DNA from: a virus | Taxonomy: Duplodnaviria; Caudoviricetes | Direction: 5' to 3' (one strand) | DNA: 39,683 bases | IMG/VR virus record: IMGVR_UViG_3300034025_000014 | Location: 1 to 39,683 of that record | Shown: positions 989 to 19,745 of the stretch, in pieces | Layout: each line of letters opens with the position of its first letter | Numbering within the stretch: the stretch's first letter is position 1 | The notes under the pieces: generated by a model | Database searches by the model: none | Told to the model about the DNA's origin: nothing | What the model saw: the letters and a program-made list of their open reading frames with translations, nothing else | Position numbers and translations under genes: made by a program

Positions 989-1363
989 CTATTCTTTAGG
1001 CTTCCTGTAGTCACACGGTGGCGTTTCTTCAAATCGCACAGCCTTGATCGTCGGATTTTTATCAATCAGCGCACGCAGTACTCGATGCCAGCCATCCATA
1101 ATGAAACCTTCCTGGCACAAAATTACCGGGTAACTAGTGTCCACATCCAATGCGCGGCGCACATGATGAGCAATGCCATATGCCGATCCAACAGGAACCC
1201 AAACTTGCGAACCAGAATAGATCGCGGCAAGCGGCAAATCGAACGGGATCAAATCCTTCGCTTTAGCAATCAGATTTGTTACCACCCATACGCACTCACC
1301 GTCTTGGTATGTATTTTCATCAACCGTGCAGCCAGTTACCTTTACTGGTAGACGCTGTGTCAT
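989..1363 (-). CDS. ParB/Srx-like N-terminal domain protein
   Basis: PVIL..GFIMDGWHRV motif; ATGA overlap with the portal stop. Confidence 0.7.
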   Translation of the reverse strand: MTQRLPVKVTGCTVDENTYQDGECVWVVTNLIAKAKDLIPFDLPLAAIYSGSQVWVPVGSAYGIAHHVRRALDVDTSYPVILCQEGFIMDGWHRVLRALIDKNPTIKAVRFEETPPCDYRKPKE

Positions 1364-3444
1364 TGCGCATCACCTTGTGGCTGCATCGGAGGCGCTGGCG
1401 GTTGTGCCATTGCCACCAGCTTGCCTGCTTGATCGATTGCATGCGCCTCGCGGCCCTGTTCAACACCGGCCAGCGTGGCGATGGTCTTGGCGTGCGTGTC
1501 GGCGGTCTGTGCGTCAGTGAGCAAGCCCTTCTTCTGTGCGGCGTCTGCATCAGCCATAGCTTTAGCTGCTGCTGCCTGGAGATACTGTGCGTTCGGGTCA
1601 GGCTGCTGATTGGCTTGAGCGGCTTCGATAGCCTTCTGCTCGTCGTCGGTTGGCTTGACTGCGCCCATGTTGACCAACTTCTTACGGAAGTAGGCATGTA
1701 CGTCGCTCAGACCCTCGCCTTCCATGTTCAGCATCGCCATGGAGGTAAGCACGGTCAGCGTCTCAGGGTCTTGCGTCATCTGCATCATTCCGGTCAGGCC
1801 GCGAACGGTTGCAGCACGCCGGCTGTTGCTCGATGGCCCAACGTCAACGCTCACATCGAACTTTGCCGATGCCAGATCGTTTGCCGTGTATGCCTCGCCC
1901 GTCTCCTTGTCGATCATCGGCTTGAGCAGTTCAACCTTGCTAGTCTCGCCTGCCTGGTCAACCGCTTTCATCTCGCGGCCTTCTTCAACGAGCAAATCCT
2001 TCGCCATCGATACCCACACTTCACCTAAGCGCTTCATGGTCTTGCGGAAGTTGTCGATGTAGATAAACACCTGCATATCGAGGCGCTGTTGTATCAATTC
2101 CACAGCCTTGCCGGATTGGTTCGGCTGCATTTCCTCGCCTGCTTGCTGGTTGCCGAGCATATCCTCAAGCGATTGCGCTGCCATCTGAGCGAGCGCAGCC
2201 ATGGCTTGCGGCAGGACAGGCGACTTCGTGTAAGCGACAGGCCCAGCGGGCATCTGCTGGCCGCTGGCGTCTGTGATTGGGTTGATGAGCAGGTAGGGAT
2301 ACTTCTTAATCGCGTCATTAGCCCACATTTGCGCGTGGCCTGCGATCTGCTCAGGCGTCAGGATCGGCTTTTCAACGTCAAAGCGTGCTGCCATCTCAGC
2401 GAGCCACGATTTAATCATGTTGTCGAGTACCTGAGCATCGCGTGCCAGGCGCACATGACCTTGGCAACGTTCAATGCCATCGACAAACCAGCGCTTGCCG
2501 TAGAACGGGATGACCGGGATACACTTGCCCGCAATGAATCCCTCATCGGACAGGATGCGGTCGCCGTTCATGATGTACTTGCGCACCTTGGGCCGTTTCA
2601 CGCGCTTGATGCGAGCCTCGCGGAAGCCGGTAGCTTCTAGCTCTTCGCGCTTACCTTCTGCCTGCAAATCTTCGGCAGTAACTTCAATCTCGTTCGGCTC
2701 ATCGTCGTTCAGCGCGATACCACGGAAGAAGTGTATGACTTCCTCTTTCTGCTCGATCTCGTACACCTCGGCAATCCACACAACATCAGGCGTGGCCCAG
2801 TCGAAGTTATAGCCGACTTCCATCTGCGGCCAGCCGGTAGGATCGTCGCCGTACTGGTCCTTGTAATCAGCCGGCGTCAAGCTGGTCAGCAGATAGCAGC
2901 GTTTGGCGTCAGCTTTATCCTGGCGCTTACCGTCGAGTGAGAAAAATACGCATGTATCAGCCTCAAACACCGGCTCAATAGCGATACGCTGGCGATCGTC
3001 TTCGTCGTCATCCTCATCCTCATACCGCGCACGCAAGCGAATGGCGCCCATGCCGCCGCTGGTGCCTTCCTCGAAGCAGTTGTCGTATGCCTCCTGCGCG
3101 CCGCTGTCCTGCTCATCAGCACGAAACAGCCCGTCGCAAGTCTGCGCGAGGTCGTCGTTATCGCTGCCATCCTTCGGCACAAAATCAACCGTGATTCGGT
3201 TATTGCGGTATTCGTTGATGACGCGGAGAACGGCTAAGTGCGTCTTGTTGAACTCGAAGCGCGGCTTGTTCTCGAACTGAACGCCTACCGGGCCTTCCCA
3301 CTGTGCGCCAGGCACAGAGTAGAATCGCCGGTCACTGAGGCATTGCATCCTTACGTCTCTTACCGCACATTGGATATTCTCAAAGTCAGTCAGGAAGAAG
3401 GCGTGTTTGTCGCGTAGTCGGGCGCTTGGGCGCTGCTGGCTCAT
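1360..3444 (-). CDS. Portal protein (P22-like)
   Basis: 694 aa; DRRFY..GAQW, RPRFEFNK-like start, PVIPFYG, NQSGKAV, FDVSVDVGPS motifs; Q/A-rich helical C-terminus. Confidence 0.93.
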   Translation of the reverse strand: MSQQRPSARLRDKHAFFLTDFENIQCAVRDVRMQCLSDRRFYSVPGAQWEGPVGVQFENKPRFEFNKTHLAVLRVINEYRNNRITVDFVPKDGSDNDDLAQTCDGLFRADEQDSGAQEAYDNCFEEGTSGGMGAIRLRARYEDEDDDEDDRQRIAIEPVFEADTCVFFSLDGKRQDKADAKRCYLLTSLTPADYKDQYGDDPTGWPQMEVGYNFDWATPDVVWIAEVYEIEQKEEVIHFFRGIALNDDEPNEIEVTAEDLQAEGKREELEATGFREARIKRVKRPKVRKYIMNGDRILSDEGFIAGKCIPVIPFYGKRWFVDGIERCQGHVRLARDAQVLDNMIKSWLAEMAARFDVEKPILTPEQIAGHAQMWANDAIKKYPYLLINPITDASGQQMPAGPVAYTKSPVLPQAMAALAQMAAQSLEDMLGNQQAGEEMQPNQSGKAVELIQQRLDMQVFIYIDNFRKTMKRLGEVWVSMAKDLLVEEGREMKAVDQAGETSKVELLKPMIDKETGEAYTANDLASAKFDVSVDVGPSSNSRRAATVRGLTGMMQMTQDPETLTVLTSMAMLNMEGEGLSDVHAYFRKKLVNMGAVKPTDDEQKAIEAAQANQQPDPNAQYLQAAAAKAMADADAAQKKGLLTDAQTADTHAKTIATLAGVEQGREAHAIDQAGKLVAMAQPPAPPMQPQGDAQ

Positions 3445-3525
3445 TGTTTTAGCCTATCGATGGTGAATTACCGATAGTCTACAACTTCCGATTGTCTAGC
3501 GGGAATATTTGTGATAACGGACGTG

Positions 3526-3550
3526 AAAAAGCCACCCCGAAGAGTGGCTT
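3526..3550 (-). terminator. Intrinsic terminator
   Basis: GCCACTC-TTCG-GGGTGGC followed by TTTTT on the minus strand. Confidence 0.8.
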
Positions 3551-3638
3551 AGTGGTCGTCGGTGCGTCTCGGAATTATTACGCGCGTTCTCCATGCCTCG
3601 ACCAGCGAACGGAATCGAACCGTACATCGTCTCTACTG

Positions 3639-3887
3639 CTATCCAGAAATAAACGGCAACCCTGTTGTTAAGCTGCTATTCTTTTTACCTAGCTTTGCTC
3701 CGTAATACCCAATACTAATTGGGACGCCAGCGCTAAAAACAATATCTTTATTCTGCTCAAACACCGCCCAACTTTTAAGAGCTTCTTTCGCAAACTCAAT
3801 ATCACGTTGCTCTTTTTCTTCTATCATCTTCGCAACGTATTCAGCAAATCTCTTTTTTGCCTGATCACATTCTTCTTCAAAACTCAT
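3639..3887 (-). CDS. Hypothetical protein, AT-rich moron ORF
   Basis: 82 aa, strong GGAGGA RBS, visibly lower GC than flanks. Confidence 0.65.
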   Translation of the reverse strand: MSFEEECDQAKKRFAEYVAKMIEEKEQRDIEFAKEALKSWAVFEQNKDIVFSAGVPISIGYYGAKLGKKNSSLTTGLPFISG

Positions 3888-3905
3888 AGTTCCTCCATCT
3901 TATTG

Positions 3906-4061
3906 GGCATGGTCTGCCGGCCTTTCACCAGCTACGTTTTCGATGCCAGTTCTTGCAAACTGGATTACACGCTTCTCAACCCATTGAGACTGTAGATCAC
4001 TTTGCCGGGACGGGCGCTATGTTGACGTTGGAATCAACAGCAGACACAAAGTGATCTACAG
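3906..4061 (-). ncRNA. Putative structured RNA (multi-hairpin leader)
   Basis: Perfect 15-bp inverted repeat 3990-4004/4047-4061 plus hairpins 3974-3989, 3946-3963 and 3906-3947. Confidence 0.5.
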
Positions 4062-4107
4062 AGCAGTCATATTGCCATAGAAACAGAGTTATCGTGATTG
4101 ATTCTAA

Positions 4108-4278
4108 CTATCGCTCAATTCTCTGCCGAATAGCCAGCACATCGCATTGCATGACGATGAACAGCGACAGCAGGAAGCAGCGGAAGTATTCGCCCTTCGA
4201 TAGCGTGATGATCGCGCCGAGTGTAGCAGCGAAGATAGCTATCCAGCTAAAGAGGATCGAGAACTTTACGTCTTTCAT
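4108..4278 (-). CDS. Small two-TM membrane protein (56 aa, not in ORF track)
   Basis: MKDVKFSILFSWIAIFAATLGAIITLSKGEYFRCFLLSLFIVMQCDVLAIRQRIER; ATGA overlap with the upstream ORF. Confidence 0.6.
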   Translation of the reverse strand: MKDVKFSILFSWIAIFAATLGAIITLSKGEYFRCFLLSLFIVMQCDVLAIRQRIER

Positions 4279-4454
4279 ACTGCATCCGACTTCAACTTGT
4301 TACGCGGATCAGCAGCAACCTGTGCTTGATAAGCTGCGATTGCCTCTGGCTTTCCTTTGATGCCTGGAACCAGTCCTGCATCAGCGCACCCCATGAACGC
4401 CTTAAGAGCAGCTTTATTTATGTCAGCACAGAGCTTTGCTTTGCGGTCTTTCAT
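4275..4454 (-). CDS. Hypothetical protein (59 aa, not in ORF track)
   Basis: MKDRKAKLCADINKAAL...KSDAV; AGGAG RBS at the end of terL. Confidence 0.6.
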   Translation of the reverse strand: MKDRKAKLCADINKAALKAFMGCADAGLVPGIKGKPEAIAAYQAQVAADPRNKLKSDAV

Positions 4455-4455
4455 G

Positions 4456-5688
4456 CTATCTCCTGGAGAATGGCGAGGCTATCGGGATCGGGGCCGAACC
4501 TTTGGGCCGCTGATTCGCTATCATAGCGCGTCTTGCTCCTTCGCAAGCGTACCGCAGCGCATCAATTACATGATTGTCCTTATCTTCCAGCTTTGGCAGC
4601 ACTTGACCGGTTAGCTTGTCCGTCTCGTATTTGTACAGCGTCAACTCGTCAATCAAGTGCTTGCAGCGAGGATGCACAACAATGTCGTATGATTTCAGCC
4701 ACTCAACGCCATCTTCCAGACTGCCCGGGCCTTTCACAGCTGCGGCGATCTTCGGGAAGCCATTGCGGCGCATGTGGCTGATCGTCTCCGGCCTGGCGCT
4801 GTCAGCAGTCATCGGCCACTTCTCACTGTCAGGGATCGACAGAAACAAGTCAGGCGTATCTACAATCTCGCAGCCGACGCGGTAAGCCTCGTAAGGCACA
4901 TACAGCTTGCGCCCAACGATGTAGCACTGAACCAAAACAGATGGATCGACCGAGAATCCCCAATCGGCGCCCTGGCGGATCGTCTGCGTTGGGTCAACGT
5001 CGAATTCCTCCACAGTCCAATTCTTGAACACGCGAGACTCACTGTTCTGCTCGTACTTGCCTAGCCAAACGTGCGCGTATTTGTCCGGATCGCGGCGCTT
5101 GTCATATTCCATCTCATCGCGCAGCACATCAGGGAACCAAGGATTGTCAAGATAGTTTGCTTCAACTACCGTAGCTCCCTTATAGAGTTCGCCGGCGCGT
5201 AAGAACTGGTCAACAGGATCAGTCTCGTTCTTCGGGTTCCAAGTGAACAGGATTTCGCTGTCAGGCTTACGGATGGTTGGGCGCAATAGGTCAAGTGAGC
5301 GCTGACTGAGTGATTGCGCTTCCTCAACCCATGCGATATCGAAGCCCTCAAGCGACTTGATCGAGTCCGCCGTGTGATTCTGCATGCCGCTGAACACCAT
5401 GACGCCACCGTGAGGCGTGCCGATCTTATCGCGCTGCACATCGAACAGGCTACCAAGGCCAAGCGCCTCAATCTTGCCTTCGATTAGCTTCTTGACCGAC
5501 ATCGACAGAGACTTTTGCACCTCACGGATGCAAACCACATCGGTCTTGGCCATCAGGCAGCGCTCTACGATGTACTCAGCCATCGCATGCGACTTACCAG
5601 AGCCACGACCGCCCCAAACACCTTTGTAGCGAGCAGGAGGCAGCAGAGGCAGGAACCAGCGGGGAGTTTGAATCTCTAGCGTAGTCAC
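4456..5688 (-). CDS. terL: Terminase large subunit (PBSX family)
   Basis: Walker A GGRGSGKS, Walker B WVEEAQ, TWNP, nuclease DWGFSVDP and DNHVIDALRY. Confidence 0.96.
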   Translation of the reverse strand: MTTLEIQTPRWFLPLLPPARYKGVWGGRGSGKSHAMAEYIVERCLMAKTDVVCIREVQKSLSMSVKKLIEGKIEALGLGSLFDVQRDKIGTPHGGVMVFSGMQNHTADSIKSLEGFDIAWVEEAQSLSQRSLDLLRPTIRKPDSEILFTWNPKNETDPVDQFLRAGELYKGATVVEANYLDNPWFPDVLRDEMEYDKRRDPDKYAHVWLGKYEQNSESRVFKNWTVEEFDVDPTQTIRQGADWGFSVDPSVLVQCYIVGRKLYVPYEAYRVGCEIVDTPDLFLSIPDSEKWPMTADSARPETISHMRRNGFPKIAAAVKGPGSLEDGVEWLKSYDIVVHPRCKHLIDELTLYKYETDKLTGQVLPKLEDKDNHVIDALRYACEGARRAMIANQRPKGSAPIPIASPFSRR

Positions 5689-8610: not shown

Positions 8611-10962
8611 TTAAATGATTGTGGTCAAGTTTATCACCAAAGCTTTACCCTTGGCATCAATTACCACGTAGGCGCAAGCTGTTTTTGCCTTCAATGTGGC
8701 ATCTTCAAGCACGAATCCACCTTTGCTGTTCGCTGTCACGTTGTCAAAGCTGCGGATTAGTTCGCGGGTTGCCGGGTTGAATACCTGAATCAGCAGTTTC
8801 GTCATCTTTTTAAGATTGACGTTGCTTGAGACGGTTATCTTGCCTTTCTTCGCTGGCGTTGGCGGAGGAATGACGACTGGCGGGGGCAGCGTAACAGGGG
8901 GCGTTACCGTTACATCAGTGCGCGGAATGATGTCCCATTGCGGGTTCTGGCTGTAGTTTGGCTTGACCAAGCGCTTATCGAACACGCTCCACGCTTTGGT
9001 AGCTCCTGGCGCGTTCAATGTAGCAGCGAGCGCCACTGCTGGCTGTACCTGAGCTGGCACGCCTAACACAAAGTCAGAATAGCCCATGAATCGACCAGCA
9101 GGCCAGCCATACGTGCCGCCGTGGATATAGCTGAGATAGTCGCCTTGCGCCTGGCTGTAGCACGGCAGGTCGATAAACTTGACGCCTGACGGGCCTGCTC
9201 GCAATTCGTCGTTGTCGTTCTTTATCATGTCGCCGCTATAGTTTGCTTTGTAGAGATCAGCAAACGTGGAATACACCTTGCCATCACGCCCAACGCCATC
9301 GCGCAGGTTGCCAATCCCGTATGCAGTGGACATAATTGGGCAATAGCCGGGATCAGTCAGGCGACCAGTAGCAAACTTCGATTTCCACTCGAATACCGGT
9401 CGTGCCTGCTCAAAGTTAAGCTCCACCAGATAGCCGAGCGCCCAAGTAAAGAATGCGTCTTGCCATGGTGATGCGCCTTGAATGCCGGTTCTCTGGTCAG
9501 TATCGAAAAAAGCGTTCTCGCCCGAACCATCATAGGCGCCAAGGTTGTTCGGATTGCCGACAACGTAGGTCTGATGGTAGAAATCGAGGTTGTTTGCCAC
9601 CTGCTTGACGAAATAGGTTTTCATCGGATCGGCATCAGGCGATGCGTATGCAGCATCACCTAATGTGCGCAAGCCCCATGCTTGACCGCGCAGCTGGTGC
9701 CAGCGCATTAACCCTAAGCCAGCATGATCCTCTGGCGAAGTCTCAAGCGGGTTCGTCGCAGCCCAGAATTGCAATTCTTCCAGATAAAAGCGTTCACCAG
9801 TTACGAGGTATGGCAAGTAAGCCAGCGATGGCAAGTGAGCCGGGTCATGGCTGTAAGCTTGTGCGCCGCCGTTTGCAGCGTAGCGCGGGATCGGAAATGG
9901 ATATTCGGGCTTGTCAATCGCGTTCCAGTGCGTAGAAATGCGCTTGTTCGCTGCGTTGTCTGTGCGGATTGGGGCGCCGGTCTTTTCATCTCGGTAGTGC
10001 ATGTTCCATGCGCCTGAGCCATCAGCGGCTGCAATCATGGCGTCCTTGGCGCGCTTGTCCATGCTCAACAGGTAGATTACCGTGAACTCTGGCAGCGGCC
10101 CGATATCGCCACGACCACCAGCGTTATGCATGTCAGGGTTCAGCGGGCCAATCTTGAGCAGTCCGCTATTATCTGGCGTCAGCGCCCCGCCCCAGCGCTG
10201 CAATACTTCCTCTGGAATCGTCAGCTGCTCGTAGTTGCTCACGGCGCGCGAGGCGATCAGGTACGCCGTATTGTGCTGAATGTGGATTGCTGGCGTGGCG
10301 CCGGTCCAAAAGTATTGATGCCAGCGCGAGTGGTGATAGTGCGTCAGCGCCTTCTGACTAAATACCGTCTTGCCGCTGATATCGACACTCACATCGTATG
10401 TGAATTGGCCGGCGTTCGGTTGCCACGTCTTCGTGTTCTCAACGATCACTTCTACGCGAACCGCTTTTGTAGCGTGGTAGAGCCTAGCAGCGAATTTGAC
10501 CGTTAGCAGGGGATGCGCGGCGCCGGACTTGTCTACCAGCGGCGCATCAAAGCTCATTTCGTCTACGATATTGCCGAGCATCCAATGGGCCTGATCGTTC
10601 CAGCTTTGCGGCATGGCTGCGGTGTAGACTGCGCCGGCAATGGTAAGCGTGACCTTTGCATCAACGCTCGGCCAAGCATGGAAGCCATCACTCACCCTTG
10701 CGGTCTTCACCAGATCAAACTTCGCTGTAGCGTCCTTAGCAAGCGATGGCAGTATCCCCGATACAATCGCATGGCGCACCGACTTATCGCCGTGGCTGGC
10801 CTTAAAATCGACCTGGAGCGGGATCGTCGAACCATCCGACAATTTACCAGCCAGCCCTTCCCCCTGCATCAGATCGCCAGCTTTGAATACCTGGCTGAAG
10901 GTGAAAGGTACGTTGCTTTGCGCCTCTCCTGTGTTCTGTATGCGGATATCGGGCAATGACAT
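8611..10962 (-). CDS. Large putative polysaccharide-active protein (beta domains plus alpha/alpha toroid, PcRGLX/YetA-like), Pro-rich linker, small C-terminal domain
   Basis: PFTFSQVF..LQVD..HGDKSVRHA N-terminus; YLPYLVTGERFYLEEL and QLRGQAWGLR helical repeats; TPPVTLPPPVVIPPP linker. Function is inferred. Confidence 0.5.
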   Translation of the reverse strand: MSLPDIRIQNTGEAQSNVPFTFSQVFKAGDLMQGEGLAGKLSDGSTIPLQVDFKASHGDKSVRHAIVSGILPSLAKDATAKFDLVKTARVSDGFHAWPSVDAKVTLTIAGAVYTAAMPQSWNDQAHWMLGNIVDEMSFDAPLVDKSGAAHPLLTVKFAARLYHATKAVRVEVIVENTKTWQPNAGQFTYDVSVDISGKTVFSQKALTHYHHSRWHQYFWTGATPAIHIQHNTAYLIASRAVSNYEQLTIPEEVLQRWGGALTPDNSGLLKIGPLNPDMHNAGGRGDIGPLPEFTVIYLLSMDKRAKDAMIAAADGSGAWNMHYRDEKTGAPIRTDNAANKRISTHWNAIDKPEYPFPIPRYAANGGAQAYSHDPAHLPSLAYLPYLVTGERFYLEELQFWAATNPLETSPEDHAGLGLMRWHQLRGQAWGLRTLGDAAYASPDADPMKTYFVKQVANNLDFYHQTYVVGNPNNLGAYDGSGENAFFDTDQRTGIQGASPWQDAFFTWALGYLVELNFEQARPVFEWKSKFATGRLTDPGYCPIMSTAYGIGNLRDGVGRDGKVYSTFADLYKANYSGDMIKNDNDELRAGPSGVKFIDLPCYSQAQGDYLSYIHGGTYGWPAGRFMGYSDFVLGVPAQVQPAVALAATLNAPGATKAWSVFDKRLVKPNYSQNPQWDIIPRTDVTVTPPVTLPPPVVIPPPTPAKKGKITVSSNVNLKKMTKLLIQVFNPATRELIRSFDNVTANSKGGFVLEDATLKAKTACAYVVIDAKGKALVINLTTII

Positions 10963-10972
10963 GGGGCGCCTT

Positions 10973-11013
10973 AAAAAAATCCCCGCTTACCAGAGCGGCT
11001 GCGGGGATTTAAA
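10973..11013 (-). terminator. Intrinsic terminator in the leader of the late operon
   Basis: AAATCCCCGC-14 nt-GCGGGGATTT plus T tract, 10 nt before the 783-aa ORF start. Confidence 0.75.
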
Positions 11014-11081: not shown

Positions 11082-11158
11082 TGGAGCCGATAGCAAGGGT
11101 TCGAACCCGCGACATCTTCCTTACAGGGGAAGCGCTCTGCCAACTGAGCTATACCGGC
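11082..11158 (-). tRNA. tRNA-Thr(UGU), atypical: C33 and one extra base in the T arm
   Basis: GCCGGTA TA GCTC AGTTGGCA GAGC G CTTCC CCTGTAA GGAAG ATGTC GCGGG TTCGAAC CCTTGC TATCGGC T CCA. Confidence 0.88.
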
Positions 11159-11167
11159 AAAATTCTT

Positions 11168-11245
11168 TGGTCTGAGCTGGTGGATTTGAACCACCGATAT
11201 CCCGCTTCCAGGGCGGGTGACTTGACCGGACTAGCCTAAACTCAG
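11168..11245 (-). tRNA. tRNA-Pro(UGG), atypical: C33 and A37
   Basis: CTGAGTT TA GGCT AGTCCGGTCA AGTC A CCCGC CCTGGAA GCGGG ATATC GGTGG TTCAAAT CCACC AGCTCAG A CCA; C1-G72 and A73 are Pro identity elements. Confidence 0.88.
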
Positions 11246-11463: not shown

Positions 11464-12045
11464 TTATCCGTTAGCCAATGCTTTGGGTACTTCGTCTTTG
11501 TGAATCGTCTTCTTAAAGCCAATTCCTGCGGCAACGTGATAAACCACAATCCCTTCTGGGTTCATGAAGCCAGGCGCAATCAAGCTTCCGCCTTTGCTAA
11601 GATCAGCCATGATCTGATCGACGTCGATGTCAGTAAAGATACCCCTCGCAATTACAGGCACTGTACCGCAACATGTCGGACGTACTGCATCATCCTGCCA
11701 GCGCGAGACATTGAACAGGGCAAATTGCTTCTCCTGCTGATCATAACGCCGCTGAATGCCTGATCCCCACCATTCACCAAAATGACGACCAGGACCAAGC
11801 TTTAACAATTCTTCTGCATTCGCCTCAGCCCATTTAGCGAAACCGTAATTGTCGTCTTTAGTTGAAAGCCAGCGCGTACGGCTTCCCGCATACAGTGCAA
11901 GCCCTCCACTTTGGTAAATTGCCCCAGCGGCGTCATACCCATCAAGCTCTACGATACCTACTTGCGCATTTGTACCGTCAACTTTTTCAGTGACGATAAC
12001 CTCACGCGAAAGGCGGGCCATTTTTGGAAAGTCCATGAATTCCAT
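11464..12045 (-). CDS. RNA ligase (Rnl2-like nucleotidyltransferase core)
   Basis: Motifs I TEKVDGTN, Ia SRTR, III FGEWWG, IIIa FALF, IV EGIVV, V FKKT; start chosen from the AAGGA RBS. Confidence 0.85.
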   Translation of the reverse strand: MEFMDFPKMARLSREVIVTEKVDGTNAQVGIVELDGYDAAGAIYQSGGLALYAGSRTRWLSTKDDNYGFAKWAEANAEELLKLGPGRHFGEWWGSGIQRRYDQQEKQFALFNVSRWQDDAVRPTCCGTVPVIARGIFTDIDVDQIMADLSKGGSLIAPGFMNPEGIVVYHVAAGIGFKKTIHKDEVPKALANG

Positions 12046-12092
12046 TTGCATTCCTTCTTTATGTGCTGGCCGGATCGCAGGCCAGCTTTGCG

Positions 12093-12773
12093 TTAAATCC
12101 CGAGCGCCGAGAATATCGACTGCTTCGGCAACTTTGGCGCGTGCCATTTCTGCCTTACCCGCTGCACCAGATCAATGACAGGAGGTTGCCAGCCCGCTAT
12201 GTAGACCGCCCATACGGTATGCGTTACCTTCGGGCCAGAAATACGCATCAGCCGCTTTGTATCCTCAAGCTCGCGCAGAATAGCGAATACGACATTTGAG
12301 TCAGCATCGCAGCCACGTACTATCTCCATAGTCTTGCATTTGCCGTTAGCCTGAACAAACTGCGCTACTTTCTCAAGCAAGCCGGGATGCTTTTGTTCCC
12401 TTGCGGTGCGCTTCTTGGCAAGCTTCCAGAGCCGATTGTAGTCGCGCGTCTTTTCGTTAGCCTTGATATCGTAATGCCGCTGCTTTGCAGTTCGCCTGGC
12501 TGGTCGCGCGACATCAGGATCGCTACCAAGCTCGTAGACCGGCGCCAAGCACCCTTGAGTGCGCAGCCATCTGCAAACACGGATACGCCCTGGCAGCATT
12601 TCCCTTACCTGTTTGAGCATGGCATTGACTGCCGACTTTGTACAGAACATCTTGCTCGTCAAATCTTCGGAACTGCATGGCGCTTCTGCCAGCGCTTCCA
12701 TCATGCGCTTGTATCTTTGATGCGACCCGATGGTTTTAAATGGTATTGAAAGCTCAGCGTATGGACTACGCAT
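12093..12773 (-). CDS. Tandem winged-HTH-like protein
   Basis: Two helix-turn-helix-plus-wing-like segments joined by a basic linker; TAATG coupling. Confidence 0.55.
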   Translation of the reverse strand: MRSPYAELSIPFKTIGSHQRYKRMMEALAEAPCSSEDLTSKMFCTKSAVNAMLKQVREMLPGRIRVCRWLRTQGCLAPVYELGSDPDVARPARRTAKQRHYDIKANEKTRDYNRLWKLAKKRTAREQKHPGLLEKVAQFVQANGKCKTMEIVRGCDADSNVVFAILRELEDTKRLMRISGPKVTHTVWAVYIAGWQPPVIDLVQRVRQKWHAPKLPKQSIFSALGI

Positions 12774-15405: not shown

Positions 15406-15522
15406 TTATTTCTGCGCAGGCTTGAATGTGCCGGTGAACAGGTAGCGATCCTCCAGGCGCTTGACCATAGCTGCATGGTCAGCAGGGGCAGGGAGGGGAG
15501 CGGGGAGGGCGGGGGTGGTCAT
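15406..15522 (-). CDS. Small Pro-rich protein (38 aa, not in ORF track)
   Basis: MTTPALPAPLPAPADHAAMVKRLEDRYLFTGTFKPAQK; ATGA overlap with the HD gene stop. Confidence 0.45.
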   Translation of the reverse strand: MTTPALPAPLPAPADHAAMVKRLEDRYLFTGTFKPAQK

Positions 15523-16025
15523 GCTTTCACCTGAGCGCGAGCCATCATTAACAGCCGCGCATCAGCCTTGGTCATCGCATCCAGAAGCAAGCGCTTTTCT
15601 TCAAGGTAAGTGACAGCAAACTTCGGATCATGCATGACGATGCTTGAAGTATTGCTAATCAAGTCCGCACACTTGATGTTTTGAATCCAGCCGGCGCAGC
15701 CAGCAAGACGATCACGAGCTTTTTGCTTACGTTCTGCACGGTTACCCGTTTCGACATCGGAGAGGCCCGAAACCCCTAGCGCTACTTGAAAACCAAATCG
15801 ATTTTCAATATCTTCCAGAGTGACACCGCAATCCTCAACTGAATCGTGAAGCCATGCCACAGCAAGCGTAACTTCGCGGTTGTCGATAGTGCTAATAATC
15901 CCGGCCACTTCCGCCAAGTGATCGGCGTAAGGGTTACCGGTATATTTGCGCTGCTGCGCACGATGCACATGGCGAGCAAAAAGCATCGCATCGTAGGCAA
16001 GTCCGTATGTATATTCCATCATCAT
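15519..16025 (-). CDS. HD-domain small alarmone hydrolase-like protein (SpoT/Mesh1 type)
   Basis: H..Q.RK..G.PY..H, LHDSVED, IKCADLISN. Confidence 0.85.
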   Translation of the reverse strand: MMMEYTYGLAYDAMLFARHVHRAQQRKYTGNPYADHLAEVAGIISTIDNREVTLAVAWLHDSVEDCGVTLEDIENRFGFQVALGVSGLSDVETGNRAERKQKARDRLAGCAGWIQNIKCADLISNTSSIVMHDPKFAVTYLEEKRLLLDAMTKADARLLMMARAQVKA

Positions 16026-18854: not shown

Positions 18855-19745
18855 ATGAGCAATCTCGCCGTACAACAGCAGGGCGCCGTAACGGTACAAA
18901 CCGAAGAAGACTTGATCCGCGTGCTGCAAAACTCGCTTTATCCTGGCGCGCAAATCGGCTCAGTGCGGATGGTGCTGGGATACTGTCAAGCCGCCGGCCT
19001 GGACCCGATGCAGAAGCCGGTGCACATCGTTCCCATGTGGGACAGCAAAAGCGGCAGCATGCGCGACGTGGTGATGCCGGGCGTAAATCTGTACCGCACC
19101 CAGGCATCGCGCACGGGCAAGTTTGCAGGCATGTCAGAGCCTGAATATGGCCCGATGATCGAAGAAACGCTTGGCGGCGTCACGATCAAATACCCGGAAT
19201 TCTGCCGCATTACCGTCGAAAAGTTGCTTGAAAACGGCACTATTGCCCGTTTCACTGCAATTGAATACTGGATGGAAAACTATGCGGTCAAAGGGGGCAA
19301 GGAAAAATCCATCGCGCCTAATGCCATGTGGATGAAACGCCCGCGCGGGCAAATCGCCAAGTGCGCCGAGGCCCAGGCGCTGCGCAAGGCATTTCCAGAA
19401 GTGGGCAGCCAGCCGACCGCCGAGGAAATGGAAGGCAAGAGCATGGGCGCCGAGATCGACATAACGCCCCAGCCGGCCGCGCTGTCGCAAGATTGGCTTG
19501 CCGCTGTCGAGGCTTGCGCCACTACGGAGGAATGCACCGCTGTGTGGCAGGCTGGCGTAAAGGAAATTCAAGCCGCGGGCGATAAGCCACTGTACGACCG
19601 GTTCAAGTCTGCGGTGGGTGCCAAGGGTGTGGCGCTGAAAGCCGCTGAAATGGCTGCCGTTGCAGAGCCTGTTGAGCGCGTCGAGCCGATGACCGATGCC
19701 GAGATCGAAGCTGCCGACCTGGCCCGCACTGGCGGTGCGCAATGA
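18855..19745 (+). CDS. bet: Single-strand annealing protein, RecT/Bet family
   Basis: C...GLDPMQKPVHIVP, YRTQASRTG, W..RPRGQIAKCAEAQALRKAFP. Confidence 0.92.
   Translation: MSNLAVQQQGAVTVQTEEDLIRVLQNSLYPGAQIGSVRMVLGYCQAAGLDPMQKPVHIVPMWDSKSGSMRDVVMPGVNLYRTQASRTGKFAGMSEPEYGPMIEETLGGVTIKYPEFCRITVEKLLENGTIARFTAIEYWMENYAVKGGKEKSIAPNAMWMKRPRGQIAKCAEAQALRKAFPEVGSQPTAEEMEGKSMGAEIDITPQPAALSQDWLAAVEACATTEECTAVWQAGVKEIQAAGDKPLYDRFKSAVGAKGVALKAAEMAAVAEPVERVEPMTDAEIEAADLARTGGAQ

What the first reader, a model, noticed from the sequence alone, without database searches (positions are those of the whole stretch)
11082..11245. Two tandem phage tRNAs both carry C33 instead of the near-invariant U33
Seen: the anticodon loops are CC-TGG-AA (Pro) and CC-TGT-AA (Thr), with intact stems, matching acceptor identity elements and encoded CCA. 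tRNA-Pro also has A37, and tRNA-Thr has one extra base in the T arm. Established: U33 forms the U-turn in almost all elongator tRNAs; bacterial tRNA-Pro has G37 methylated by TrmD; some phage tRNAs escape host anticodon nucleases through anticodon-loop changes. Inference: the same rare substitution in two unrelated tRNA bodies suggests selection rather than decay. Options are nuclease-resistant replacements, TrmD-independent Pro decoding, decoys, or altered-register decoding (a U-turn at U34 would present GGA/GUA).
Basis: partly seen in the sequence, partly recalled or inferred. Interest (0 to 1): 0.82.

Follow-up and report, generated by a model that had tools for sequence, protein, structure and literature searches.

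The report
Phage tRNA pair with C33 loops
A small soil-crust phage carries two intact tRNA genes, beside an RNA ligase gene, that both have C instead of the almost universal U just before the anticodon; about 3 in 100 phage tRNAs share this change, and these two likely work as spare tRNAs reshaped to escape host tRNA-cutting enzymes, though no enzyme that reads this base is identified here.

Summary
Confirmed. tRNA-Pro(UGG) and tRNA-Thr(UGU) both have CC-UGN-AA loops, and a second study's contig shows the same bases. C33 is a recurring phage variant: 33 of 988 viral and metagenome tRNAs, versus 0 of 201 cellular Thr(UGU) and 0 of 150 listed cellular Pro(UGG) matches. It favours C32/A37 loops in intact genes. 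A37 alone is common (21 of 111 phage Pro).

New here:
(1) The extra T-arm base marks a phage tRNA-Thr group rich in C33 (11 of 55 vs 1 of 87).
(2) A published screen's supplement has a coliphage C33 tRNA-Lys as the best of 10 rescuers from the nuclease AriB, so such loops work in E. coli.
(3) Kin of the tRNA-Pro sit beside RtcB or Ro60; here an Rnl2-type ligase is the neighbour.

Best reading: working, nuclease-evading replacement tRNAs (0.55). Tolerated variation is the main rival (0.30). Shifted-register decoding is not supported. Known Thr(UGU) nucleases read the stem, not base 33. The scan found C33 phage tRNAs before in at least 7 other genomes, and tRNA-Pro+RtcB cassettes in three other findings.

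The parts
11168..11245 (-). tRNA-Pro(UGG) gene, encoded CCA, acceptor C1-G72/A73
   Evidence: (55.3 bits)
11206..11212 (-). tRNA-Pro anticodon loop CC-UGG-AA (C32 11212, C33 11211, A37 11207)
11082..11158 (-). tRNA-Thr(UGU) gene, encoded CCA; anticodon stem lacks the P2-OLD CNG motif and the U39 that AriB needs
   Evidence: (52.8 bits); motifs from passages
11121..11127 (-). tRNA-Thr anticodon loop CC-UGU-AA (C32 11127, C33 11126)
11096..11096 (-). single bulged base in the 3' strand of the tRNA-Thr T stem, after C62; shared by a phage tRNA-Thr group
11159..11167 (-). 9-nt spacer between the two tandem tRNA genes
11464..12147 (-). Rnl2-type RNA ligase (PF09414; phrog_548), ending 218 nt upstream of tRNA-Pro; KxDG motif (K55, D57, G58) conserved; true start probably M33 or M35
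   Evidence: (E 1.5e-13)
10981..10998 (-). terminator-like hairpin with T run downstream of tRNA-Thr (consensus match only; 3 found vs 1.7 in shuffles)

Best explanation
The two genes are intact tRNAs with CC-UGN-AA loops that likely work in translation as replacements for host tRNA-Pro(UGG) and tRNA-Thr(UGU), and C33 is likely one of several changes that would hide them from host tRNA-cutting or tRNA-modifying defences. Shown in the sequence: intact cloverleaves with cognate acceptor ends; no U left in either loop outside the anticodon; A37 in Pro; a Thr stem without the known OLD and AriB motifs; a T-stem bulge in Thr; an RNA ligase just upstream. Inferred: co-transcription with the upstream replication/nin genes, processing and charging by host enzymes, and normal decoding of CCA/ACA (C can fill the U-turn). 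Also inferred: selection by a host enzyme that needs U at or near 33, such as a uridine-specific HEPN nuclease, while the ligase would reseal nicked tRNAs with 5'-phosphate/3'-OH ends.
For: Function of the loop frame: coliphage Bas32 tRNA-Lys has loop CC-UUU-AA. It had the top enrichment (21.1; range 0.36-21.1) of the 10 Lys(UUU) genes in the AriB rescue screen (PMC12445682 suppl. table 2). The same gene is at >=99% identity in 78 of 88 matching records of cultured phages. Yeast tRNA-Leu(GAG) C33 decodes about as well as U33. Protonated C can build a U-turn in a riboswitch. Maintenance: C33 in 30 of 731 clustered genes; C32 in 25 of them vs 16.7 expected (p=0.0003), A37 in 29 vs 25.7 (p=0.011). 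In the tRNA-Pro D-arm family, C33 is in 5 of 17 A37 genes and 0 of 22 G37 genes, scattered over a weak tree. T-stem bulge in 11 of 55 C33 vs 1 of 87 U33 Thr(UGU), p=1e-4; 14 of 21 pairs show double changes in 15 aligned genes. Phage bias: 94 of 119 viral pattern hits are C33 tRNAs vs 9 of 120 cellular hits; 0 of 301 genomes have C33 Thr(UGU) while 192 have U33. Defence context: Thr(UGU) is the main target of P2-OLD and a prime target of AriB and Cas13a; Cas13b6 cuts on both sides of U33 in tRNA-Val(GAC). 7 of 17 A37 kin of the tRNA-Pro lie within 2.5 kb of RtcB or Ro60 vs 0 of 22 G37 kin.
Against: No enzyme was found that needs U33 in Pro(UGG) or Thr(UGU). OLD and AriB escape maps to the stem, and 8 of 9 U33 Lys genes also rescued in the AriB screen (4.2-17.9), so C33 is not needed there. 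That rescue is a pooled screen with another tRNA and could include competition. C33 does not cluster much within phages: neighbours 19 of 379 vs 33 of 988 overall; both genes C33 in 1 of 19. The closest kin of the tRNA-Pro include a U33 gene (L602) as near as a C33 gene (L666), and 5 bulged Thr genes have U33. C33 is not significantly tied to ligases: 16 of 50 vs 10 of 50 records (p=0.25), and 4 of 50 vs 0 of 50 nearby (p=0.12). Only 11 of 74 loci of this ligase have a tRNA within 5 kb. The family RtcB contrast is confounded: G37 genes lie in large arrays, and two of the seven are one lineage. Host and expression are unknown.
Confidence: 0.55

Rival explanations
1. Working supplementary tRNAs in which C33 is merely tolerated: a near-neutral variant allowed by a C32/A37 loop and by relaxed selection on a dispensable phage gene. 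Any defence benefit would come from the stems, A37 or the bulge, not from base 33.
For: C33 has a minimal effect in yeast; C+ can form the U-turn. U33 and C33 are interleaved among close kin. C33 is spread thinly over many anticodons with no G35 or U34 rule (p=0.71, 0.29). U33 Lys genes rescue from AriB too. The C32 coupling fits a structural permission as well as U-stripping.
Against: Both of this phage's only two tRNAs carry it (about 1e-3 or less if independent). It is enriched roughly tenfold in the bulged Thr group. The C33 Lys gene is at >=99% identity in 78 cultured-phage records. CCA (29% of Pro) and ACA (21% of Thr) show no special demand and no late-gene bias.
Confidence: 0.3
2. Decoys or non-translating RNAs: the tRNAs bind and titrate a host nuclease or modifier, or serve as partners or substrates of the ligase, without much decoding.
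For: The T-stem bulge lies beside the 51-63 pair that EF-Tu reads (own knowledge). Loss of m1G37 hurts charging of E. coli tRNA-Pro and wobble methylation. E. coli TsaBCDE failed to add t6A to a U33C tRNA-Met(i) in vitro. Kin sit beside Ro60, whose partners are tRNA mimics (search listing).
Against: Anticodon, acceptor identity and CCA are kept across diverged relatives. A CC-UUU-AA tRNA was enriched in the AriB screen and not in the PtuAB screen. A 2026 TsaBD structure shows no base contact to U33.
Confidence: 0.09
3. Altered-register decoding: the U-turn moves to U34 and the tRNAs present GGA or GUA, or cause frameshifts.
For: Only the formal presence of U at 34 in both loops.
Against: 17 of 33 C33 genes have no U34, and U34 is not enriched (16 of 570 vs 17 of 415). 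Acceptor ends match the unshifted anticodon. Both loops are 7 nt with 5/5 stems. The Bas32 gene rescues Lys(UUU) loss.
Confidence: 0.03
4. Decay or sequence error.
For: Depth is low (7.3 and 2) and only contigs were available; the Thr gene has an extra base.
Against: Identical bases in a second study. All stems are intact. The extra base and C33 recur in diverged relatives with compensatory changes.
Confidence: 0.03

Closest known systems
Phage tRNA-Thr(UGU) genes that rescue P2-OLD toxicity, including that of lambdoid phage 21 (PMC12445682)
   Same: Small lambdoid-like phage with a tRNA-Thr(UGU) whose anticodon stem lacks the CNG motif; this phage also has Red-like recombination genes.
   Different: Published escape is by stem changes. 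The main text has no mention of U33 or position 33, and no C33 Thr or Pro loop of this type is in the supplement.
T5 tRNA-Lys(UUU), Thr(UGU), Asn(GUU) against PARIS AriB (PMC12409363)
   Same: Replacement tRNAs for the same Thr isoacceptor; the window's Thr has G39 where AriB needs U39 in tRNA-Lys.
   Different: Determinants lie at 39-41 and further away, not at 33; Pro(UGG) is only a possible minor target.
tRNA-Lys(UUU) of T5-like coliphage Bas32 IrisVonRoten (MZ501075), also in BF23
   Same: Same loop frame CC-UNN-AA with C33, in an intact phage tRNA; it works in an E. coli rescue screen.
   Different: Another amino acid, in a large tRNA array of a lytic phage, with no T-stem bulge; the role of C33 was not tested.
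Nuclease-insensitive phage tRNA hypothesis (van den Berg et al. 2023, PMC10264068)
   Same: Anticodon-loop changes in phage tRNAs read as escape from host tRNases.
   Different: Based on known VapC/PrrC/colicin sites; in the first third of the text, which is all I read, position 33 is not singled out.
Natural C33 tRNAs: yeast tRNA-Leu(GAG) and initiator tRNA-Met of multicellular eukaryotes
   Same: C33 in functional tRNAs.
   Different: Eukaryotic and single genes, with no defence link.
tRNA genes beside RNA-repair ligases (L-arrays with rtcB, PMC8421152; T4 Rnl1/Rnl2)
   Same: tRNA supply next to an RNA ligase.
   Different: Here two tRNAs and a short Rnl2-type domain, with no Pnk or RtcB hit among the 55 ORFs scanned; kin of the Pro gene use RtcB or Ro60 instead.

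Membership tests
Canonical bacterial-type tRNA (Rfam RF00005) | Cloverleaf with 7-bp acceptor, D, anticodon and T arms | tested here: met
   Thr has one bulged T-stem base
Canonical bacterial-type tRNA (Rfam RF00005) | U33 | tested here: not met
   C at 11211 and 11126
Canonical bacterial-type tRNA (Rfam RF00005) | Acceptor identity matches the anticodon; CCA end | tested here: met
   identity elements themselves from own knowledge
Bacterial tRNA-Pro (TrmD substrate) | G36-G37 for m1G37 | tested here: not met
   A37 at 11207; cellular Pro(UGG) has G37 in 149 of 150 listed matches, phage genes A37 in 21 of 111
Nuclease-resistant phage replacement tRNAs | Anticodon of a known nuclease target | tested here: met
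   Thr(UGU): OLD, AriB, Cas13a; Pro(UGG) only a possible minor AriB product
Nuclease-resistant phage replacement tRNAs | Changes at known recognition sites | tested here: met
   Thr stem has no CNG palindrome and has G39 (against passages); also true of many U33 phage Thr genes
Nuclease-resistant phage replacement tRNAs | Expressed, charged, decodes, resists cleavage, rescues infection | not testable with these tools
   needs bench tests; only the analogous Bas32 gene has rescue data
Nuclease-resistant phage replacement tRNAs | C33 itself is the escape determinant | tested here: inconclusive
   non-random context, but U33 genes also rescue from AriB and no U33-reading enzyme for these tRNAs turned up
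Frameshifting or shifted-register tRNAs | Expanded or re-paired anticodon loop | tested here: not met
   7-nt loops on 5/5 stems dominate the fold
Y RNA-like tRNA mimics (YrlA) | Rfam YrlA match and Ro60 gene nearby | tested here: not met
   only RF00005 hits in the window; no Ro60-like hit among 55 ORFs
Rnl2-type RNA ligase (PF09414) | Nucleotidyltransferase domain with KxDG motif | tested here: met
   E 1.5e-13, above cut-off; K55, D57, G58, E125, E198 conserved in at least 97% of 70 aligned rows
Rnl2-type RNA ligase (PF09414) | Seals tRNA nicks | not testable with these tools
   no structure or activity data; no solved relative by sequence

The most novel reading that the evidence does not exclude
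CC-NNN-AA is a general stealth anticodon loop that phages evolve repeatedly against a still unnamed host enzyme that cuts at, excises or modifies U33. This phage carries a compact armour-and-repair unit: two U-stripped tRNAs, one without m1G37 and one with a T-stem bulge and possibly without t6A37, plus a ligase. The anticodons that carry C33 in phages would then map the targets of that enzyme.
Probability: 0.3. Interest if true: 0.75.

Novelty: new variant of a known kind. Interest (0 to 1): 0.5.

Why it matters
U33 is a textbook invariant, yet about 3% of phage tRNAs break it, almost only in C32/A37 loops. An unremarked row in a published screen shows that such a tRNA works in E. coli. That makes the question cheap to test with a cultured phage gene (Bas32 or BF23 tRNA-Lys, C33 vs U33) and with these two genes. 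If C33 gives escape, it points to an undescribed U33-reading defence and offers a design rule for nuclease-proof tRNAs. If it does not, it defines when U33 is dispensable in bacteria. The C33-rich tRNA-Thr group with a T-stem bulge did not turn up in my paper searches or in the scan's notes.

Tried and rejected
Two viral scans used a wrong spacer length and do not test C33 in Pro/Thr; their loci were used only as background tRNAs.

No close relative of the whole locus was found: the exact-stem pattern gave 0 hits; the best ligase relative is 68% identical and has no tRNA; none of the family loci shares the ligase; the portal had no match at E<=1e-80 in 401 genomes of the order of G001. The host stays unknown; the nearest named cultured portals are 52% (Pseudomonas phage PfAn1) and 44% (Ralstonia phage RSK1).

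No RNA holder was listed. Run X2 did not cover the tRNAs at 90% likeness.

Codon demand: no late/early bias for CCA or ACA. No sigma-70 promoter match between ligase and tRNA-Pro.

A G35, U34 or A38 rule for C33 failed. A t6A-class bias was marginal (18 of 371 vs 15 of 614, p=0.046), and the papers disagree on U33 as a t6A determinant, so loss of t6A37 is left open.

A general C33-ligase link was not significant. The C33 set there was all 28 Pro loci plus 22 Thr loci (14 in list order, 8 picked for the bulge); controls were 21 A37 and 29 of 87 G37 Pro loci; one record is in both sets; four controls were checked only to 1.5 kb.

The covariance model of the bulged group did not separate it from other tRNA-Thr. 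The tRNA-Pro tree has too few columns to count origins. My recollection of a published G37A tRNA-Pro suppressor was not confirmed. The ligase was not folded.

Full report
Setting. The window is a 39.7-kb virus record of a P22-like podophage: portal, terminase, ejection proteins, Red-like annealing protein and exonuclease, NinB/NinG. The best-holding run is a biocrust metagenome. The only two tRNA genes lie in tandem on the minus strand, between the replication/nin genes and the late genes. They are 218 nt downstream of an Rnl2-type RNA ligase and upstream of a terminator-like hairpin. The host is unknown.

Observation. A record from a second study covers both C33 sites without a difference.

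How rare. In viral scans that ignored base 33, C33 was in 1 of 111 unique Pro(UGG) genes (120 loci, 115 called) and 1 of 91 unique Thr(UGU) genes (121 loci, 98 called); A37 was in 21 of 111 Pro genes. Over all viral and metagenome loci not picked for base 33 it was 33 of 988. A scan for the C33 loop gave 119 viral loci, of which 94 are called tRNAs (about 540 stretches estimated in the collection). The same scan of cellular genomes gave 120 loci with 9 called (about 2,500 stretches estimated), some in tRNA arrays. In 301 genomes of the phylum of G001, U33 Thr(UGU) matched 201 times in 192 genomes and C33 never. All 150 listed of 237 Pro(UGG) matches had U33, 149 of them G37. A rough scaling gives 2-3% in phages against about 0.1% in cells. 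So C33 is a recurring phage variant. Having it in both genes is uncommon (3e-4 to 1e-3 if independent), but only 1 of 19 other C33 loci holding both genes does so, and neighbours of C33 genes carry it in 19 of 379 cases.

Not decay. After collapsing near-identical genes (731 clusters, 30 with C33) and shuffling within anticodon, C33 goes with C32 (25 vs 16.7 expected, p=0.0003) and with A37 (29 vs 25.7, p=0.011), not with A38. C33 genes are as intact as U33 genes.

The tRNA-Pro family. The gene belongs to a family found by its D arm (86 loci, 3 cut ones dropped, 44 unique genes with the window, 39 others scored). C33 is in 5 of 17 A37 members and 0 of 22 G37 members. The nearest kin are one U33 and one C33 gene, 10 differences each, and the tree is too weak to count origins.

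The tRNA-Thr group. The extra base is a bulge after C62. A scan of the 683 loci held then found it 17 times, 16 in tRNA-Thr: 11 with C33, 4 Thr(UGU) and 1 Thr(CGU) with U33. That is 11 of 55 C33 against 1 of 87 U33 Thr(UGU) genes in the matched scans (p=1e-4). In 15 aligned members, chosen for the bulge, 99.4% of cells pair and 14 of 21 pairs change on both sides. The bulge position fits 15 of 15 and the alternative 6 of 15.

Does such a loop work? The supplement of PMC12445682 (table 2 rows seen) lists a tRNA-Lys of coliphage Bas32 whose loop I confirmed as CC-UUU-AA in the phage record. It had the highest enrichment of the 10 Lys(UUU) genes in the AriB rescue screen and none in the PtuAB screen; the main text never mentions U33. 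Eight of the nine U33 genes rescued too. The gene is at >=99% identity in 78 of 88 matching cultured-phage records. Yeast tRNA-Leu(GAG) works with C33 (10.64898/2026.02.20.707122, passages), and protonated C can replace U in a U-turn (PMC4105743, abstract and passages). These results, and the lack of U34 in 17 of 33 C33 genes, argue against the shifted-register idea.

Why C33? Thr(UGU) is the main target of P2-OLD (PMC12445682, abstract and passages) and a prime target of AriB (PMC12409363, passages) and Cas13a (PMC11042736, passages). The window's Thr stem already lacks the OLD and AriB motifs, so base 33 is not explained by them. Enzymes that act at 33 exist: Cas13b6 cuts after U and flanks U33 in tRNA-Val(GAC) (PMC13692257, passages), and CdiA-CT EC536 cuts between 32 and 33 (PMC11724271, passages). 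None is shown to need U33 in these two tRNAs. Both loops have lost every U outside the anticodon, which fits escape from a uridine-specific nuclease (inference). A37 removes the TrmD site; m1G37 aids charging and wobble methylation in E. coli (PMC8643618 and PMC5909439, passages). Whether C33 blocks t6A37 in Thr is disputed: an in vitro test says yes for E. coli TsaBCDE on tRNA-Met(i) (PMC8887486, passages), while a structure shows no base contact (PMC13276492, passages).

Neighbours. Seven of 17 A37 kin of the tRNA-Pro lie within 2.5 kb of RtcB or Ro60, mostly as lone tRNAs directly upstream, against 0 of 22 G37 kin. The profiles were built from these loci, G37 genes lie in arrays, and two cases are one lineage. 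Two bulged C33 Thr genes have RtcB or a PF09414 ligase beside them. The window thus pairs the same tRNA lineage with an unrelated ligase. C33 as such shows no significant tie to ligases, and 11 of 74 loci of this ligase have a tRNA within 5 kb. tRNA arrays beside rtcB are published (PMC8421152, passages). OLD leaves 5'-phosphate/3'-OH ends, which T4 ligases seal after a single nick but not after its double cut.

In print and in the scan. Nine searches listed no paper on C33 in phage tRNAs or on the T-stem bulge. The library lacks most subscription papers. I read only the first third of PMC10264068 and did not see its supplement or that of PMC12409363, where C33 loops may be shown. 10.1101/2020.12.31.424971 and 10.1101/2022.05.14.491930 (passages) added nothing on A37. 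The scan has noted C33 phage tRNAs in at least 7 other genomes and tRNA-Pro+RtcB cassettes in three findings. Identity elements, EF-Tu contacts and the reading of phrog hits as Red-like genes are from my own knowledge.

Verdict. A real, maintained variant of a known kind (phage replacement tRNAs). Most likely these are working tRNAs altered to evade host tRNA-targeting defence (0.55), with simple tolerance of C33 close behind (0.30). Interest 0.5: less rare than it first looked, no enzyme in hand, but now directly testable.

Noticed in passing
L683:1471-1548 (MZ501075.1, Bas32): Cultured T5-like phages carry a C33 tRNA-Lys(UUU); it was the top Lys rescuer in a published AriB screen whose main text does not mention base 33.
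   Followed up: yes
L116, L120, L135, L170, L183, L186, L192, L195, L203, L204, L208, L508, L521, L623, L631, L646: A one-base T-stem bulge after C62 found almost only in phage tRNA-Thr; the bulged base varies (A, U, G).
   Followed up: yes
L602, L607, L616, L666, L675 (RtcB); L613, L665 (Ro60): Lone A37 tRNA-Pro(UGG) genes next to RNA-repair genes; in L607 and L675 the tRNA is partly duplicated and RtcB hits come in two pieces.
   Followed up: partly
L681:5993-6070: A member of the same tRNA-Pro family with anticodon CGG keeps the CC-...-AA loop with C33 and A37.
   Followed up: no
L623, L631, L646: Related phages with bulged U33 tRNA-Thr carry C33 in tRNA-Ile(GAU) and tRNA-Glu(UUC) instead.
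   Followed up: no
window 15519-16025 (-): Stand-alone HD_4 hydrolase (PF13328) in the nin region; may act on alarmones or nucleotides.
   Followed up: no
window 8611-10962 (-): 783-aa protein right after the tRNAs with no Pfam or PHROG hit.
   Followed up: no
window ends (1 and 39683): No major capsid gene among the 55 ORFs scanned and no terminal repeat; the same proteins are on record on a 43,015-base contig, so the record is probably incomplete.
   Followed up: partly
window 1360-5688 and 18855-19745: Portal, terminase and annealing genes nearly avoid ACA (2 of 31, 0 of 19, 0 of 16 Thr codons) while accessory genes use it.
   Followed up: no
L173:2501-4076: A C33-pattern hit that ARAGORN does not call lies directly before a Ro60 gene; possibly a Y RNA-like mimic.
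   Followed up: no
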